A DNA stretch of 4,393 nucleotides from a virus (Duplodnaviria; Heunggongvirae; Uroviricota; Caudoviricetes), in IMG/VR virus record IMGVR_UViG_2579778784_000011. One strand, given 5' to 3'. The translations under genes were made by a program, and so were the position numbers. Below the pieces are notes generated by a model. The model saw only the letters and a program-made list of their open reading frames with translations, did not search any database and was not told where the DNA came from. The first letter of the stretch is position 1. Each line of letters begins with the position of its first letter. This document shows positions 1 through 4,393 of the stretch, one piece after another.

Positions 1-1734
1 GCACGCAACGCTGAAGCCGCCTCTCAGAGCGCAGCGGCAGCAAAGAAATCAGAAACAGCAGCGGCATCGTCCAGGAATGCGGCGAAAACATCAGAGACGA
101 ATGCAGGTAACAGCGCGAAAGCGGCAGCTTCTTCAAAAACAGCCGCACAAAACGCAGCAACAGCGGCAGAACGTTCAGAGACAAATGCCCGTGCGTCAGA
201 AGAAGCCTCCGCAGACAGTGAAGAGGCTTCCCGCCGTAATGCAGAGTCAGCCGCTGAAAATGCCGGAGTCGCCACCACAAAAGCGCGGGAGGCCGCAGCA
301 GACGCAACAAAGGCCGGGCAGAAAAAGGATGAGGCTCTGTCGGCAGCGACACGGGCTGAAAAGGCGGCAGACCGCGCAGAAGTCGCAGCGGAAGTGACTG
401 CAGAGCCCTATGCGAATATAGTGCCGCCGCTGCCTGATGTGTGGATACCGTTTAACGATTCACTGGATATGATTGCGGGTTTTTCTCCGGGCTATAAAAA
501 AATAGCTATTGGTGACGATGTGGTTCAGGTCGCCAGTGATAAACAGGTTAATTTCAGTCGCGCATCAACGGCAACATATATCAACAAATCTGGCGAACTG
601 AAAACGGCGGAAATTAATGAGCCGCGATTTGAGTGTGATGGCCTGCTTATTGAGGGACAAAGAACGAACTACATGCTCAATTCGGAAAGTCCAGCCAGCT
701 GGGGGAAGTCATCAAACATGGATGTGCCCGAAACCGGGACGGATAGTTTTGGTTTTACTTATGGAAAGTTTGTCTGCAACGATTCTCTGGTTGGGCAAAC
801 TTCGGCTATTAATATGGCATCAATTGCTGCAACAAAGTCAGTTGATGTCTCAGGCGATAACAAGTACGTGACAACCTCATGCCGTTTTAAAACAGAACGA
901 CAGGTAAGGTTACGTATACGGTTTGATAAGTATGATGGTAGTGCAACAACTTTTCTTGGCGATGCGTACATTGATACGCAAACGCTTGAAATTAATATGA
1001 CAGGTGGTGCTGCCGGCAGAATTACGGCACGAGTCAGGAAGGATAAGACCACAGGCTGGATTTTTGCAGAGGCAACGATTCAGGCAATTGATGGTGAGTT
1101 AAAAATAGGCTCTCAGATACAGTATTCTCCTGAGCAGGGTGGGGCAACAGTATCTGGTGACTATATTTATCTTGCCACCCCACAAGTAGAGAATGGGCCG
1201 TGTGTATCATCATTTATTATTTCAGGAGGCAGCGCAACGACAAGAGCCAGTGATTTGGTTAGTATCCCCACCAGAAATAATCTTTATAAGTTACCATTTA
1301 CTTTTTTACTTGAGATTCATAAAAACTGGGATATTGCACCAAACGCCGCACCCCGCGTGTGGGATATAGCAGCAGCCAATACCGGGCAATTAGCAATTGC
1401 AGCAATCAACAGAGGTAGTGGTAAGTTATATATGAGTCTGTCAAACCCTTCAGGCTCGTATGTTAATAGCGCAGCGACAGATGTATTTGCAGAGAAAACC
1501 ACATTTGGATGTATTGCAAAAGCTGATGGTCACTTTCATGTGGTGACAAATGGTAAAGCGGTTAATGAAGTTTATTGTGAATATAATGGCGTGACCGCTG
1601 ATAAAAATATCCGATTTGGAGGGCAGACGAATACTGGAGAACGACATCTGTTTGGCCATATTCGCAATTTCCGCATATGGCATAAAGAAAAGCAATTGCA
1701 GCAATCAACAGAGGTAGTGGTAAGTTATATATGA
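1..1734 (+). CDS. side tail fibre protein (Stf-like), 5'-partial at window edge; 3' end frameshifted by a tandem duplication
   Basis: Frame 1 is open from nt 1 with no stop until 1732-1734, so the gene enters the window in progress and the GTG at 394 in the ORF track is internal. The first ~130 codons are an Ala/Ser/Thr/Glu/Lys-rich low-complexity shaft (e.g. AAKTSETNAGNSAKAAASSKTAAQNAATAAERSETNARASEEA), as in lambdoid Stf-type side tail fibres. A less GC-rich C-terminal region follows. The last 14 codons before the stop lie in copy 2 of the 299-bp duplication and are read out of phase. Confidence 0.8.
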   Translation, partial: ARNAEAASQSAAAAKKSETAAASSRNAAKTSETNAGNSAKAAASSKTAAQNAATAAERSETNARASEEASADSEEASRRNAESAAENAGVATTKAREAAADATKAGQKKDEALSAATRAEKAADRAEVAAEVTAEPYANIVPPLPDVWIPFNDSLDMIAGFSPGYKKIAIGDDVVQVASDKQVNFSRASTATYINKSGELKTAEINEPRFECDGLLIEGQRTNYMLNSESPASWGKSSNMDVPETGTDSFGFTYGKFVCNDSLVGQTSAINMASIAATKSVDVSGDNKYVTTSCRFKTERQVRLRIRFDKYDGSATTFLGDAYIDTQTLEINMTGGAAGRITARVRKDKTTGWIFAEATIQAIDGELKIGSQIQYSPEQGGATVSGDYIYLATPQVENGPCVSSFIISGGSATTRASDLVSIPTRNNLYKLPFTFLLEIHKNWDIAPNAAPRVWDIAAANTGQLAIAAINRGSGKLYMSLSNPSGSYVNSAATDVFAEKTTFGCIAKADGHFHVVTNGKAVNEVYCEYNGVTADKNIRFGGQTNTGERHLFGHIRNFRIWHKEKQLQQSTEVVVSYI

Positions 1735-1989
1735 GTCTGTCAAACCCTTCAGGCTCGTATGTTAATAGCGCAGCGACAGATGTATTTGCAGAGAAAACCA
1801 CATTTGGATGTATTGCAAAAGCTGATGGTCACTTTCATGTGGTGACAAATGGTAAAGCGGTTAATGAAGTTTATTGTGAATATAATGGCGTGACCGCTGA
1901 TAAAAATATCCGATTTGGAGGGCAGACGAATACTGGAGAACGACATCTGTTTGGCCATATTCGCAATTTCCGCATATGGCATAAAGAAT
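1392..1989. repeat. perfect direct tandem duplication, 2 x 299 bp (unit 1392-1689, junction base A at 1690, copy 1691-1988)
   Basis: Base-by-base comparison: 1392-1689 is identical to 1691-1988 over 298 bp. The first difference is 1690 (A) versus 1989 (T). Confidence 0.97.
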
Positions 1990-2021
1990 TAAATGACAGG
2001 CAATTAAAAGAGGTCGTATGA
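1731..2021 (+). CDS. displaced tail fibre C-terminal fragment (copy 2 of the duplicated segment in the native phase); likely remnant, not an independent gene
   Basis: Encodes the same 85 residues as copy 1 (MSLSNPSGSY...FRIWHKE), then LNDRQLKEVV and a TGA that overlaps the next ATG (ATGA at 2018-2021). This looks like the original end of the tail fibre gene. Its own ATG overlaps the upstream stop (ATGA at 1731-1734), so reinitiation is possible. Confidence 0.4.
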   Translation: MSLSNPSGSYVNSAATDVFAEKTTFGCIAKADGHFHVVTNGKAVNEVYCEYNGVTADKNIRFGGQTNTGERHLFGHIRNFRIWHKELNDRQLKEVV

Positions 2022-2296
2022 AAGATTTAACTTTGAAGTTTCATGACAAACTGCAGTTTAAGGCCTTCCTGTCATCTCTTGGCTGGGCGGAAGATGAAGA
2101 CCTCCAGAATAAACTGTTAGTTGATGAAATTGGTTTCACCTACACAGAAACAGGGGTAACAGAAGAGGGAGAACCTGTCTGTATCCGGAATGATGGTTAT
2201 TTTGTCAACATTCGCATTCTTGATGACTTGTTTGATGTTTCTGTATTCTCTGATTATGTCGTGGAGCTGGAAACACCGCTTCGGGAATGGAGCTGA
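2018..2296 (+). CDS. hypothetical small acidic protein (92 aa), translationally coupled to the tail fibre gene
   Basis: ATG at 2018 overlaps the native-phase tail fibre stop (ATGA), with AAGAGG a few nt upstream. 92 aa, strongly acidic (about 20 Asp/Glu versus 8 Lys/Arg). No motif recognised. Its 3' two-thirds lies inside the 271-bp duplication. Confidence 0.6.
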   Translation: MKDLTLKFHDKLQFKAFLSSLGWAEDEDLQNKLLVDEIGFTYTETGVTEEGEPVCIRNDGYFVNIRILDDLFDVSVFSDYVVELETPLREWS

Positions 2297-2618
2297 AAGG
2301 AGGAAATAATGGATATAAGCCCCTTACTTCATGCACTTTGTGCTGTATCTTGGCTGGGCGGAAGATGAAGACCTCCAGAATAAACTGTTAGTTGATGAAA
2401 TTGGTTTCACCTACACAGAAACAGGGGTAACAGAAGAGGGAGAACCTGTCTGTATCCGGAATGATGGTTATTTTGTCAACATTCGCATTCTTGATGACTT
2501 GTTTGATGTTTCTGTATTCTCTGATTATGTCGTGGAGCTGGAAACACCGCTTCGGGAATGGAGCTGAAAGGAGGAAATAATGGATATAAGCCCCTTACTT
2601 CATGCACTTTGTGCTGTG
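2077..2618. repeat. perfect direct tandem duplication, 2 x 271 bp (unit 2077-2346, junction base A at 2347, copy 2348-2617)
   Basis: Base-by-base comparison: 2077-2346 is identical to 2348-2617 over 270 bp. Position 2347 is A where the base after copy 2 (2618) is G. Confidence 0.97.
2331..2567 (+). CDS. chimeric duplicate ORF created by the 271-bp duplication; probably not an independent gene
   Basis: MHFVLY, from the start region of the downstream gene, is fused in frame to residues 21-92 of the 2018-2296 product. No Shine-Dalgarno precedes its ATG. The strong RBS+ATG at 2297-2311 instead opens a 19-codon ORF ending at 2363-2365. Confidence 0.3.
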   Translation: MHFVLYLGWAEDEDLQNKLLVDEIGFTYTETGVTEEGEPVCIRNDGYFVNIRILDDLFDVSVFSDYVVELETPLREWS

Positions 2619-2868
2619 GCTGCGCAGATACTGGTTGGTCTTTTTTACCGGAAACTGGGCTTACGGAGCGATAGCCGGTTGTACGTTCTTCATTGCGCGT
2701 GAACATACCCAGGCAGAATATCGCTGGATTGAAATGTTCGGGCATGGCAAGCGAATGAATATGCCGTGGTGGGGCGGTTTTGATCCGCGTGCTTGGGATG
2801 TGGCAAGCCTGATGGATTTTGCTGTGCCGGTGGTGGCGTGTCTGCTGATCTGGATGTTGATCCGTTAA
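2602..2868 (+). CDS. hypothetical small membrane protein (88 aa, two predicted transmembrane segments); start uncertain
   Basis: Open frame with enterobacterial-like codon choice (CTG, GTG, CCG, GCG frequent). Two hydrophobic stretches long enough to span a membrane (WLVFFTGNWAYGAIAGCTFFIA and VASLMDFAVPVVACLLIWMLI), with Arg-Arg before the first. No Shine-Dalgarno before ATG 2602; a strong AAGGAGG-N5-ATG lies at 2568-2582 in a different frame. Confidence 0.55.
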   Translation: MHFVLWLRRYWLVFFTGNWAYGAIAGCTFFIAREHTQAEYRWIEMFGHGKRMNMPWWGGFDPRAWDVASLMDFAVPVVACLLIWMLIR

Positions 2869-2919
2869 ATATAAAAAGTAAAAAGCCGCAGTAACTTGTC
2901 ATGATAGGATACTGCGGCT
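2869..2919 (-). terminator. candidate intrinsic terminator for dinI (hairpin plus U-tract on the minus strand), possibly bidirectional
   Basis: Inverted repeat AGCCGCAGTA (2884-2893) / TACTGCGGCT (2910-2919): a 10-bp stem with a 16-nt loop. On the minus strand the stem is followed by UUUUACUUUUUAUAU (complement of 2869-2883), about 65 nt past the dinI stop. The loop is long for a canonical terminator. Confidence 0.45.
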
Positions 2920-2985
2920 GGCTGGTTAACTTTCGATAGTGCGAGTATTGAATGATTTCCAGCCGTTACTGATTTTACGTGCTAA

Positions 2986-3234
2986 TTAGTGAACAAACCA
3001 CTCGTCAGCAGACTCCCAGGTATCTTTCAGAGTTTCCTGAACAAAAGTTTTAGCTGAATCTTTATCGGCGGTGCGCGTAACAGAAAGGCCATCGTTGCTG
3101 GTGGCTTTTACGATCACCTCTACATCGTCATAACGTTTACTGATGCGTCGGGTTAATTCTTCCTTTAACGCATCCACAGCACCGTTTGGCATTTTAGTCA
3201 TTTTTTCTTTGGCTATGCAGATCTCAATACGCAT
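2986..3234 (-). CDS. dinI: DinI-family DNA-damage-inducible protein (82 aa)
   Basis: The translation [82 protein letters not shown] matches my memory of E. coli DinI at many positions (MRIE..IAK, GA.DAL, EL.RRI, LSV, QET, TWESAD.WFV). It is preceded by an AGAGGG Shine-Dalgarno and two LexA boxes. Not verified by search. Confidence 0.9.
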
Positions 3235-3249
3235 AAAAGTCCCTCTATA

Positions 3250-3265
3250 CTGTGTTTGTATACAG
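3250..3265 (-). promoter_or_regulatory. LexA box (SOS operator), promoter-proximal, overlapping the likely transcription start of dinI
   Basis: CTGTGTTTGTATACAG on the + strand matches the CTGT-N8-ACAG core of the enterobacterial LexA consensus TACTGTATATATATACAGTA, with flanking TA...TG. It lies 16-31 nt upstream of the dinI ATG. Confidence 0.75.
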
Positions 3266-3270
3266 TGTTA

Positions 3271-3299
3271 TTTTTAACTGTATGGATAAACAGTGTCAA
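3271..3299 (-). promoter_or_regulatory. candidate sigma70 promoter of dinI (-35 TTGACA at 3294-3299, -10 TAAAAA/AAAAAT near 3270-3276, minus-strand sense)
   Basis: Minus-strand sequence is cTTGACA-ctgtttatccatacagt-TAAAAAt: a perfect -35 hexamer, a 17-18 bp spacer and an A/T-rich -10 (4/6 match to TATAAT). The -35 hexamer overlaps the integrase stop codon (3296-3298). Confidence 0.5.
3278..3293 (-). promoter_or_regulatory. second LexA box, occupying the -35/-10 spacer of the dinI promoter
   Basis: CTGTATGGATAAACAG (CTGT-N8-ACAG), 12 bp from the first box and directly abutting the TTGACA -35 element. Confidence 0.75.
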
Positions 3300-4393
3300 G
3301 AGGTCTTATTTCTGCTCCTTTGGAGCTCTTCAAAACGATTATGTAAAGATTTCGGATACAGTTCGGTATATACCTGCCATAGCACGTTTAATGAACGATG
3401 CCCTGTAACCTGAGCGACTTCCTCAATACTAAAACCAGCCTCAAATAAGCGACTTGCCCCTTCTCTACGCAAATCATGGTATCGCAGATCTTTAATACCT
3501 AATTTGCTTCTTACCCTCTGAAATCCTGCAGTAACAGAAGTGCTGTTATATGGAAAAATGAATTCCGATTTTTTGGGCTGTCGTTGGACGATATCCCAGG
3601 CTTCCCCAAGCAAGGCTACTTTCATGTGGTTGCCTTCCTTTTTGCGTGGATCTTTCCTGTCTCTTACGAGTATAGATTTTTGTTCCTGGTCGAGATCTTC
3701 CCATCGTAACCGGCATACTTCTCCGATCCGCATACAGGACCACACAGAAAATTTGAGGATATCAACGAACGGAATTTTTGAGCATTTATGAGTAGATCGT
3801 TGTTGAAGGCCTTCAATGAGCATGTCCAGTTCATCAGATGCTGGTCTACGATTACGACGGTTTGATTTACCAATCAAACCAAGTTTAAGTAGATATGGGC
3901 GAGCGCTTTTCGCCGGGTTTGATGTGTAATTAATTCCGTATACAGGTTTGGCCGCATCCAGAACACTGCCAAGATAACTAACATCGTGGCTGACTGTTGC
4001 TGGACCTGCACCAGCGTTGTTTCTTAGCCTGCAATGTTCAATTACGTCATTTTCTGTCAGTTCAGATAGTTTGATCGCGGAGATGTCACTATCCATAAGC
4101 AGTTCCAGCACATATCTTTTAGTACGGCCTGCTTTACCTCCGGCATTTGGGTCATTTAAATATTTGTGTAGTAAGTCACGGACTGTAAGTCCGTCAACTG
4201 CATTTGATGATGGAATGCCATATAGATCTAATTCCATCACTTTCTGTGTTCCCCATGTTTTGGCATGAGCATGTTTAGGGAATGTTTTGCTTTCCCTGTA
4301 AGTGATAACACCTTTTTCTTTGATAATCACATTACAGCGATAGCGTGGTGTGCCATCGGATTTTAGTCGTTTCTCTATGTTATAGTACGCCAT
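3296..4393 (-). CDS. int: phage integrase, tyrosine recombinase family (365 aa); ATG at window edge, apparently complete
   Basis: C-terminal catalytic-domain signature in order: Arg in MRIGEVCRLRWEDL, Lys in KKEGNHMKVAL, HDLRREGASRL (His-x-x-Arg), GHRSLNVLWQVYTEL (His/Trp and the presumptive catalytic Tyr). Size is typical of lambda-like integrases, and it sits next to a tail module and a moron region. Start codon is at 4391-4393; an upstream extension beyond the window cannot be excluded. Confidence 0.9.
   Translation of the reverse strand: MAYYNIEKRLKSDGTPRYRCNVIIKEKGVITYRESKTFPKHAHAKTWGTQKVMELDLYGIPSSNAVDGLTVRDLLHKYLNDPNAGGKAGRTKRYVLELLMDSDISAIKLSELTENDVIEHCRLRNNAGAGPATVSHDVSYLGSVLDAAKPVYGINYTSNPAKSARPYLLKLGLIGKSNRRNRRPASDELDMLIEGLQQRSTHKCSKIPFVDILKFSVWSCMRIGEVCRLRWEDLDQEQKSILVRDRKDPRKKEGNHMKVALLGEAWDIVQRQPKKSEFIFPYNSTSVTAGFQRVRSKLGIKDLRYHDLRREGASRLFEAGFSIEEVAQVTGHRSLNVLWQVYTELYPKSLHNRFEELQRSRNKTS

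What the first reader, a model, noticed from the sequence alone, without database searches (positions are those of the whole stretch)
2077..2618. Perfect 2 x 271 bp tandem duplication spanning a gene boundary and creating a chimeric ORF
Nt 2077-2346 and 2348-2617 are identical over 270 bp, with an A at 2347 where the base after copy 2 (2618) is G. The unit covers codons ~21-92 of the 92-aa acidic ORF, its stop, the AAGGAGG ribosome-binding site and the first 38 nt after the next ATG. The result is a second copy of most of the acidic ORF fused in frame to MHFVLY (ORF 2331-2567), plus a second strong RBS+ATG. The period again breaks the reading frame of whatever starts at the duplicated RBS.
Basis: seen in the sequence. 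Interest (0 to 1): 0.65.

Follow-up and report, generated by a model that had tools for sequence, protein, structure and literature searches.

The report
Unmerged contig overlaps mimicking tandem duplications
The perfect 271-base repeat is really in the sequence, but together with a 299-base repeat just upstream it looks like three overlapping stretches of an E. coli prophage pasted end to end with a one-base spacer, so it is most likely an assembly join error and not biology.

Summary
Bases 2077-2346 and 2348-2617 are identical, with a lone A at 2347. A second repeat has the same design: 1392-1689 equals 1691-1988, with a lone A at 1690.

The window is the right arm of a lambdoid (mEp460/phage 21-like) prophage at dusA: side tail fibre, 92-aa acidic ORF, 95-aa membrane ORF, DinI, integrase.

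Both repeats disappear under one parse: piece A (1-1689) + A + piece B (1691-2346) + A + piece C (2348-4393). B overlaps A by 298 nt and C by 270 nt.
- Piece A exactly matches the sitABCD-linked copy of this region.
- B merged with C exactly matches a dusA-linked gut metagenome contig.
- B starts at the first base after the last SNP (1391) that separates the two copies.
- Many E. coli genomes carry both copies.

Neither junction has microhomology. Every sampled relative is single-copy. The junction sequences occur in none of 5,426 E. coli genomes, 50,697 phages, 72,556 plasmids, IMG/VR, JGI metagenomes or GTDB representatives. The chimeric ORF has no ribosome-binding site and is not on record.

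Best explanation, about 0.8: a repeat-induced mis-join of overlapping contigs. Rival, about 0.17: two very recent, functionless duplications. Interest is low. Read mapping or PCR would settle it.

The parts
1..1689 (+). Piece A: the side tail fibre (stf) reading frame from about codon 114 onwards. It ends 298 nt after the paralog-discriminating SNP at 1391.
   Evidence: Exact match to the sitABCD-linked copy in E. coli Rb-3 (L003) and TUM13754 (L068). It matches no dinI/int-linked locus exactly. The Stf family is PF08400 N-terminal domain plus phrog_1419.
1392..1689 (+). Overlap U1, copy 1 (298 nt): the last 298 nt of piece A.
   Evidence: 100% identical to 1691-1988.
1690..1690 (.). Single filler base A at seam 1.
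   Evidence: It matches neither the base before copy 1 (1391 T) nor the base after copy 2 (1989 T). Microhomology is 0 on both sides.
1691..2346 (+). Piece B (656 nt): one contiguous natural stretch made of U1 (298 nt), an 88-nt unique middle (1989-2076) and U2 (270 nt).
   Evidence: Found exactly and uninterrupted in 25 fetched loci, including L025, L004 and L015-L017.
2018..2296 (+). 92-aa acidic ORF of unknown function (phrog_1361). It is intact and its start overlaps the stf stop (ATGA).
   Evidence: phrog_1361 at E 3e-42. No Pfam, NCBIfam or PDB match. Annotated as a hypothetical protein in all relatives.
2077..2346 (+). Overlap U2, copy 1 (270 nt): the last 270 nt of piece B. This is the first copy in the finding.
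   Evidence: 100% identical to 2348-2617.
2309..2368 (+). First copy of AAGGAGG plus ATG for the membrane ORF. It reads across the seam into a 19-aa stub.
   Evidence: Translation is MDISPLLHALCAVSWLGGR*.
2347..2347 (.). Single filler base A at seam 2.
   Evidence: It differs from 2076 (C) and 2618 (G). Microhomology is 0.
2331..2567 (+). The 'chimeric' 78-aa ORF: MHFVLY followed by codons 21-92 of the acidic ORF.
   Evidence: Listed by the ORF listing. No Shine-Dalgarno sequence upstream. Not on record anywhere.
2348..4393 (+). Piece C: U2 copy 2, the membrane ORF, a hairpin, DinI (-) and the integrase (-).
   Evidence: B merged with C (2,432 nt) is an exact match to the gut metagenome contig L025, which is dusA/dinI/int-linked.
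2580..2868 (+). Membrane ORF (phrog_1443; 95 aa in relatives), split into a 40-aa ORF and an 88-aa ORF by an extra T in the run 2641-2646 (T6 against T5).
   Evidence: One-base gap against L001, L003 and L011. The same T6 allele is in L025. phrog_1443 at E 2e-57.
2884..2919 (.). Stable hairpin between the convergent membrane ORF and dinI. It is probably a bidirectional terminator.
   Evidence: Folding energy -21.5 kcal/mol, z-score -4.2. It appears as inverted repeat I2.
2986..3234 (-). DinI-like protein.
   Evidence: PF06183 at E 1e-19.
3296..4393 (-). Tyrosine integrase of prophages inserted next to dusA.
   Evidence: PF00589. The exact protein lies next to dusA (PF01207) in 10 of 10 places shown.

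Best explanation
The two 'tandem duplications' (1392-1988 and 2077-2617) are not genomic events. Three overlapping sequence pieces were laid end to end with a single placeholder base instead of being merged through their overlaps. The layout is A (1-1689), an A, B (1691-2346), an A, C (2348-4393). The unmerged overlaps, 298 nt between A and B and 270 nt between B and C, then read as perfect tandem repeats.

The likely cause is that this 2.9-kb region exists in two or more near-identical copies in many E. coli genomes. One copy sits in the cryptic prophage next to sitABCD and one in the prophage at dusA. That is a classic assembly hazard. Piece A comes from the sit-linked copy, and B and C from the dusA-linked copy.

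Shown by the sequence and the searches: the three-piece parse, the exact matches of the pieces to the two copies, the absence of the junctions everywhere searched, and the absence of microhomology.

Inferred: that the joining was done by an assembler, scaffolder, gap-filler or other concatenation step, and that each lone A stands for a one-base gap (for example an N stored as A).
For: 1. One parse explains both repeats. A's last 298 nt equal B's first 298, B's last 270 equal C's first 270, and B is a single natural 656-nt stretch.
2. The A|B seam is also where the sequence switches between copies. A exactly matches the sit-linked copies L003 and L068. B+C exactly matches the dusA-linked contig L025, including its rare T6 allele.
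3. B begins at 1392, the first base after the last SNP that separates A from L025 (1391: T in 2 of 41 loci, both sit-linked; C in all 5 dinI/int-linked). A ends 298 nt after that SNP, and B ends 304 nt after the next discriminating SNP (2042). Both distances are about one read length.
4. Both copies occur in one genome: TUM13754 loci L067 and L068 differ at 741, 1008, 1136, 1391, 1489, 2042 and other sites. The median is 2 places per genome.
5. Both seams share an odd signature: a blunt join, 0 nt of microhomology and a lone A.
6. All sampled relatives are single-copy. This covers the 8 full-length E. coli genomes (record spans of 3,821 to 3,828 nt against the 4,393-nt window) and all 40 listed rows of the 450 genomes that hold the left part (850-nt spans). 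The junction-specific search in point 7 is the exhaustive test. Among fetched loci, 50 of 50 have one U2. For U1, 38 of 39 have one copy; in the remaining locus, L049, a single U1 is interrupted by a 2.5-kb insertion and is not duplicated.
7. The junction sequences (41-mers for the BLAST searches, 28-32-nt exact patterns for the collection scans) are absent from 5,426 complete E. coli genomes, 50,697 phage records, 72,556 plasmids, IMG/VR, JGI metagenome contigs and GTDB representatives. As a positive control, the wild-type boundary is found in 41 IMG/VR contigs.
8. The literature describes this class of artefact. False duplications are typically separated by a gap or by unsupported filler (PMC9516828). 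'Artifactual tandem duplications (negative gaps)' are introduced by scaffolding (PMC8389630).
Against: - No reads are available, so absence of the junction from the sequenced DNA is not shown.
- The right end of B and the left end of C do not abut a known polymorphic site. C starts 35 nt after SNP 2042, and B ends 23 nt before the T-run. Seam 2 therefore has a weaker graph-based rationale than seam 1.
- The two overlaps differ in length (298 and 270 nt), which does not fit a single-k de Bruijn assembler.
- The placeholder reading of the lone A is a guess.
- Natural recombination between the two prophage copies is common, so the mosaic pattern alone would not prove mis-assembly.
Confidence: 0.8

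Rival explanations
1. Both repeats are real and very recent. They arose in a prophage right arm either as two blunt tandem duplications or as one complex replication template-switching event with two backward jumps, each adding an untemplated A. The region tolerates damage and the repeats have no designed function. Stf would swap its last 10 residues (LNDRQLKEVV) for 14 others (KQLQQSTEVVVSYI). The 92-aa ORF and the start of the membrane ORF would each keep one intact copy, separated by 271 nt of junk.
For: - The copies are identical, so any real event would be recent.
- The region already carries a frameshift that a relative shares (the T6 allele in L025). stf is often broken in related prophages: a 481-aa fragment plus a 96-aa fragment, and pseudogene annotations. 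Loss of function is therefore tolerated here.
- Tandem duplications are frequent spontaneous mutations in enterobacteria (PMC3411829).
Against: - Verified spontaneous duplications in Salmonella and E. coli have direct microhomology at their endpoints: at least 11 bp in PMC3411829 and 4-15 bp in all 31 junctions of PMC1428787. Here it is 0 nt at both junctions, plus a filler base. E. coli has no classical end-joining pathway (established knowledge).
- Two events of the same rare type would have to fall 88 nt apart in a lineage that is otherwise identical to L025 over 2.4 kb.
- The left endpoint of event 1 would have to fall, by coincidence, on the base next to the last copy-discriminating SNP.
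- No other genome or contig carries either junction.
Confidence: 0.17
2. The repeats were selected for a function. Candidates are a new chimeric protein (ORF 2331-2567), altered translational coupling between stf, the 92-aa ORF and the membrane ORF, or a changed tail-fibre C-terminus that alters host range.
For: - Duplications in tail-fibre adhesins can expand host range in T4 (recalled from the literature, not tested here).
- A second strong RBS plus ATG is created at 2297-2311 / 2568-2582.
Against: - Neither period is a multiple of 3 (299 and 271), so no domain is duplicated in frame.
- No complete gene is duplicated.
- The chimeric ORF lacks a Shine-Dalgarno sequence and is not on record.
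- There is no conservation: every sampled relative is single-copy.
- The downstream membrane ORF is frameshifted anyway.
Confidence: 0.03

Closest known systems
Artefactual tandem duplications at unmerged contig overlaps ('negative gaps') and false duplications flanking gaps or filler in assemblies (PMC8389630; PMC9516828; Kelley & Salzberg 2010, PMC2864568)
   Same: - The two copies are identical and separated only by a minimal spacer.
- The repeat is absent from independent assemblies of the same sequence.
- It lies in a region repeated within the genome.
- It creates false partial or chimeric gene models.
   Different: - The published cases are mostly in large eukaryotic assemblies and have visible N gaps.
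- Here the spacer is a called base (A) and the overlaps are only 270-298 nt.
- The software responsible is unknown.
- Read support could not be examined.
RecA-independent, microhomology-mediated tandem duplication in E. coli and Salmonella (Slack et al. 2006, PMC1428787; Sun et al. 2012, PMC3411829)
   Same: A direct head-to-tail repeat with a single novel junction per event.
   Different: - Those junctions carry 4-15 bp or more of direct microhomology and no filler.
- Here there is 0 nt of microhomology and a 1-nt filler at both junctions.
In-frame duplications of tail-fibre adhesin segments that expand phage host range (T4 gp37; recalled, not tested here)
   Same: The first repeat (1392-1988) lies in the C-terminal, receptor-binding part of a side tail fibre gene.
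   Different: - The repeat is out of frame (299 nt).
- The repeat in the finding (271 nt) is not in the fibre gene at all.
- There is no flanking homology.

Membership tests
Assembly join artefact (unmerged overlap / negative-gap false tandem duplication) | The two copies are identical, because they are the same DNA read twice. | tested here: met
   270/270 and 298/298 identical.
Assembly join artefact (unmerged overlap / negative-gap false tandem duplication) | The copies are separated by a gap, placeholder or unsupported filler at the seam. | tested here: met
   A single base (A) sits at 1690 and at 2347 and matches neither flank. Whether it was originally an N cannot be tested.
Assembly join artefact (unmerged overlap / negative-gap false tandem duplication) | The sequence can be cut at the seams into pieces that each match real, contiguous DNA and overlap one another. 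| tested here: met
   A is exact in L003 and L068. B is exact in 25 loci. B+C is exact in L025.
Assembly join artefact (unmerged overlap / negative-gap false tandem duplication) | It lies in sequence repeated within the genome or sample, with a seam tied to a difference between the copies. | tested here: met
   The median is 2 places per E. coli genome. Both copies occur in TUM13754. B starts one base after discriminating SNP 1391. Seam 2 is less clearly tied to such a site.
Assembly join artefact (unmerged overlap / negative-gap false tandem duplication) | It is absent from independent assemblies of near-identical sequence. | tested here: met
Assembly join artefact (unmerged overlap / negative-gap false tandem duplication) | No reads span the junction, and the read depth of the copies is half that of the flanks. 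| not testable with these tools
   The source and its reads are unknown. The chimeric ORF and the 40-aa ORF are not on record.
Spontaneous microhomology-mediated tandem duplication (enterobacteria) | A short direct repeat (microhomology) is shared by the two endpoints and retained once at the junction. | tested here: not met
   0 nt of microhomology at all four flank comparisons, and a filler base instead. The norm is 4-15 bp or at least 11 bp.
Adaptive in-frame tail-fibre domain duplication | The repeat length is a multiple of 3 and lies within the adhesin coding region. | tested here: not met
   299 mod 3 = 2 and 271 mod 3 = 1. The 271-nt unit spans the 3' end of the 92-aa ORF and the start of the next ORF.
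Gene amplification ('accordion') | At least one complete gene with its expression signals is gained. | tested here: not met
   U2 lacks codons 1-20 of the 92-aa ORF and holds only the first 38 nt (12 complete codons) of the next ORF. U1 is internal to stf.

The most novel reading that the evidence does not exclude
Both repeats are real and came from a single complex replication event in an E. coli prophage. The event would involve two backward template switches without microhomology, each adding an untemplated A. That would be an end-joining-like or MMBIR-like signature not normally seen in E. coli, and it would have created new ORFs in the process.
Probability: 0.1. Interest if true: 0.35.

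Novelty: not a real feature. Interest (0 to 1): 0.08.

Why it matters
The main value is as a caution. If taken at face value, the repeats would add a false chimeric gene, a false truncated side tail fibre and a false extra ribosome-binding site to the annotation of a common E. coli prophage.

The case also gives a practical rule for a genome scan. Suppose two or more perfect repeats sit close together, each has a one-base spacer, and none has junction microhomology. It is then worth testing whether the sequence splits into overlapping pieces that each match known DNA.

If the repeats were shown to be real, they would be a small curiosity about blunt-ended duplication in E. coli. No function is evident.

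Tried and rejected
- **Microhomology or slippage origin.** I compared the bases flanking both copies at both junctions and found 0 nt shared. Nearby short repeats (GGCAATTA near 1385 and 1999; GGCTG near 2081 and 2618) would predict junctions different from those observed (read from the sequence).
- **Finding the source record.** I looked up products created by the lesions. The 78-aa chimeric ORF and the 40-aa ORF are not on record. The 96-aa stf fragment is on record only in single-copy contigs with other stf lesions. The 88-aa ORF led to L025, which has T6 but no repeats. The source itself was not found.
There were none among 68 fetched loci.
- **An RNA gene or regulatory element inside the unit.** No Rfam match at gathering thresholds. 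No promoter-like site within the 271-nt repeat and no terminator-like site in 1300-3300; the three promoter-like matches all lie downstream on the minus strand (2901-3299), no more than in shuffled sequence.
- **Function of the 92-aa and 95-aa ORFs.** They match only PHROG families of unknown function, with no Pfam, NCBIfam or PDB match.
- **T6 as a programmed frameshift site.** The codon context CTT TTT TAC is not a canonical slippery heptamer, and an extra base would need a +1 or -2 shift. I rejected this by inspection.
- **A-tailing or polymerase template-jumping as the source of the lone A.** This remains plausible but is untestable here, so I kept it only as a variant of the artefact explanation.
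- **A single-k de Bruijn explanation.** I rejected it because the two overlaps differ (298 against 270 nt).

Full report
**1. The observation**

The repeat is real and at the stated place. Bases 2077-2346 and 2348-2617 are identical over 270 nt (repeat finder; Tandem Repeats Finder period 271, 2.0 copies, 100% matches). Base 2347 is A, whereas the base before copy 1 is C (2076) and the base after copy 2 is G (2618).

The unit runs from the third base of codon 20 of a 92-aa acidic ORF (2018-2296; pI 4.17). It passes through that ORF's stop and an AAGGAGG site and ends 38 nt into the next ORF (ATG at 2309). An open frame at 2331-2567 (MHFVLY followed by codons 21-92) exists mechanically.

A twin of the same design lies 88 nt upstream: 1392-1689 equals 1691-1988 (298 nt, 100%), with a lone A at 1690.

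**2. What the region is**

The window is the right arm of a lambdoid prophage. It holds the side tail fibre gene stf from about codon 114 (PF08400 family, phrog_1419). Next come a 92-aa ORF (phrog_1361, unknown function) and a 95-aa membrane ORF (phrog_1443, unknown function), followed by a strong hairpin (-21.5 kcal/mol, z -4.2). On the minus strand are a DinI-like gene (PF06183) and a tyrosine integrase (PF00589).

The exact integrase lies next to dusA in 10 of 10 places shown. The closest named phages are mEp460_4F5 (LR595868, 99.3%) and, for the left 2.86 kb, phage 21, Perceval and others.

No Rfam family matches the window. Consensus promoter and terminator scans found no promoter-like site within the repeat and no terminator-like site. 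The three promoter-like matches lie downstream on the minus strand and are no more than shuffled sequence gives.

**3. Comparison with relatives**

Deleting 1690-1988 and 2347-2617 gives 3,823 nt.
- It aligns end to end with mEp460_4F5, with 28 substitutions and one 1-base gap.
- It aligns with a dusA-linked E. coli chromosome locus (L011) with 4 substitutions plus the same gap.
- It aligns with a human gut metagenome contig (L025, ERZ915809 / SRR1915992 k127_2055) with only 4 substitutions and no gap.

The gap is an extra T in the run 2641-2646. It splits the membrane ORF into 40-aa and 88-aa frames. L025 shares it, so it is a real lineage marker and not private to the window.

All sampled relatives are single-copy for both units.
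- The 8 full-length E. coli genomes span 3,821 to 3,828 nt, against the window's 4,393.
- 450 genomes hold the left part. All 40 listed rows span 850 nt where the query is 1,421. The unlisted records rest on the junction search described below.
- Among fetched loci, 50 of 50 have one U2. For U1, 38 of 39 have one copy. In the remaining locus, L049, a single U1 is interrupted by a 2.5-kb insertion and is not duplicated.

I built a query that can only match if a junction is present: 41-mers centred on each seam, so that single-copy DNA offers no 28-nt word. It found nothing in 5,426 complete E. coli genomes, 50,697 phage records or 72,556 plasmids. Exact junction patterns are absent from IMG/VR, JGI metagenome contigs and GTDB representative genomes. 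As a positive control, the wild-type boundary occurs in 41 IMG/VR contigs.

The chimeric ORF's product and the 40-aa product are not on record among 153 billion gene positions.

**4. One parse removes both repeats**

The window equals piece A (1-1689) + A + piece B (1691-2346, 656 nt) + A + piece C (2348-4393).
- The last 298 nt of A equal the first 298 nt of B.
- The last 270 nt of B equal the first 270 nt of C.
- B is one uninterrupted natural stretch found exactly in 25 fetched loci.

The pieces come from different copies of this region.
- A is an exact match to the copy that sits next to sitABCD in E. coli Rb-3 and TUM13754 (L003, L068). It matches none of the dinI/int-linked loci exactly.
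- B merged with C (2,432 nt) is an exact match to the dinI/int/dusA-linked contig L025, including T6.
- Position 1391 is T in only 2 of 41 loci, both sit-linked, and C in all five dinI/int-linked loci.

B therefore starts at the first base after the last site that separates A's lineage from L025. A ends 298 nt beyond that site, and B ends 304 nt beyond the next discriminating site (2042).

Both copies coexist in single genomes. TUM13754 carries both, differing at 741, 1008, 1136, 1391, 1489, 2042 and other sites. The median is two places per genome. This is the setting in which assemblers break contigs and scaffolders join them wrongly.

**5. The junctions**

Neither seam has microhomology: 0 nt in all four flank comparisons. 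Each has a one-base filler, A both times.

Verified spontaneous duplications in enterobacteria carry direct microhomology at their endpoints.
- All experimentally confirmed rearrangements in Salmonella did, with a cut-off of at least 11 bp for duplications. Zero-homology junctions were treated as ligation chimeras (PMC3411829).
- All 31 amplification junctions sequenced in E. coli had 4-15 bp (PMC1428787).

By contrast, false duplications in assemblies are typically separated by a gap or by unsupported filler (PMC9516828). Scaffolding is known to introduce 'artifactual tandem duplications (negative gaps)' (PMC8389630).

**6. Best explanation and rivals**

I take the repeats to be unmerged overlaps of three contigs or pieces, butt-joined with a one-base placeholder across a repeated prophage region. 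I put this at about 0.8.

The parse, the exact matches, the switch between copies at the seam, the missing microhomology and the absence from all other data are shown. The identity of the joining step and the meaning of the lone A are inferred.

The explanation has four weak points. Seam 2 does not abut a known polymorphism. The overlaps are unequal. Natural recombination between the two copies is common. I have no reads.

The main rival, at about 0.17, is a pair of very recent real duplications, or one complex template-switching event. In that case the consequences are small.
- Stf would exchange its last 10 residues (LNDRQLKEVV) for KQLQQSTEVVVSYI.
- The 92-aa ORF stays intact in copy 1.
- The membrane ORF's RBS and start stay intact in copy 2.
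- The first RBS/ATG gives a 19-aa stub.
- The chimeric ORF has no Shine-Dalgarno sequence.

A selected function, at about 0.03, is not supported. Neither period is a multiple of three, no complete gene is gained, and nothing is conserved.

**7. Verdict**

The interpretation as a genomic duplication that creates a new gene is not supported. The feature is most likely not real, and interest is low. Read mapping or two simple PCRs would settle it.

Noticed in passing
window 1392-1988: A second perfect tandem repeat lies here: 298 nt twice, with a lone A at 1690 (period 299). It sits inside the 3' end of the side tail fibre gene and has the same design as the finding. If real, it replaces the last 10 residues of Stf and leaves a 96-aa C-terminal fragment ORF (1731-2021).
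   Followed up: yes
window 2641-2646: The T-run has 6 T where 50 related loci and all complete E. coli genomes searched have 5. This frameshifts the 95-aa membrane ORF (phrog_1443). The same T6 allele is in gut metagenome contig L025 (ERZ915809, SRR1915992), so it looks like a real, rare lineage marker and not a private error.
   Followed up: partly
window 1-2859 versus 2860-4393; loci L003, L068, L067: The left 2.86 kb (stf, 92-aa ORF, membrane ORF) is shared at 99.5% identity or more between two prophage contexts. One is next to sitABCD and one is next to dinI-int-dusA. Both often occur in the same E. coli genome (median 2 places per genome). Similarity to the sit-linked copy ends at about 2848-2859.
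   Followed up: partly
window 1391: This is a T/C polymorphism. T occurs in only 2 of 41 loci, both sit-linked, and C occurs in all dinI/int-linked loci. It lies immediately before the first repeat unit and marks the switch between the two copies.
   Followed up: yes
window 2884-2919: A stable hairpin (-21.5 kcal/mol, z-score -4.2) lies between the convergent membrane ORF and dinI. It is probably a bidirectional terminator, although the consensus terminator scan did not call it because it has no T-run.
   Followed up: partly
window 3296-4393 (-); loci L005-L014: The exact 365-aa integrase is extremely widespread (indexed in 12,108 blocks of the collection). It always sits next to dusA, while the tail-fibre modules beside it vary greatly (Peptidase_S74, Phage_fiber_C, Caudo_TAP, NleG effectors, IS elements). 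The right arm is a mosaic hot spot.
   Followed up: no
L049 (IMGVR_UViG_2687453297_000002) 1560-4397: In this viral contig the U1 stretch of stf is split into 198 nt and 108 nt, about 2.5 kb apart, with about 8 nt counted twice. This fits an IS insertion with a target-site duplication, as annotated ('mobile element protein') in Lambda_4C10, 4A7, 1W and 3W.
   Followed up: no
window 2018-2296 and 2580-2868: The two small ORFs downstream of stf (phrog_1361 and phrog_1443) have no Pfam, NCBIfam or PDB match. They are conserved next to this fibre type in hundreds of genomes. Their position, with a start overlapping the stf stop, suggests a fibre accessory or chaperone role, which I did not test.
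   Followed up: partly
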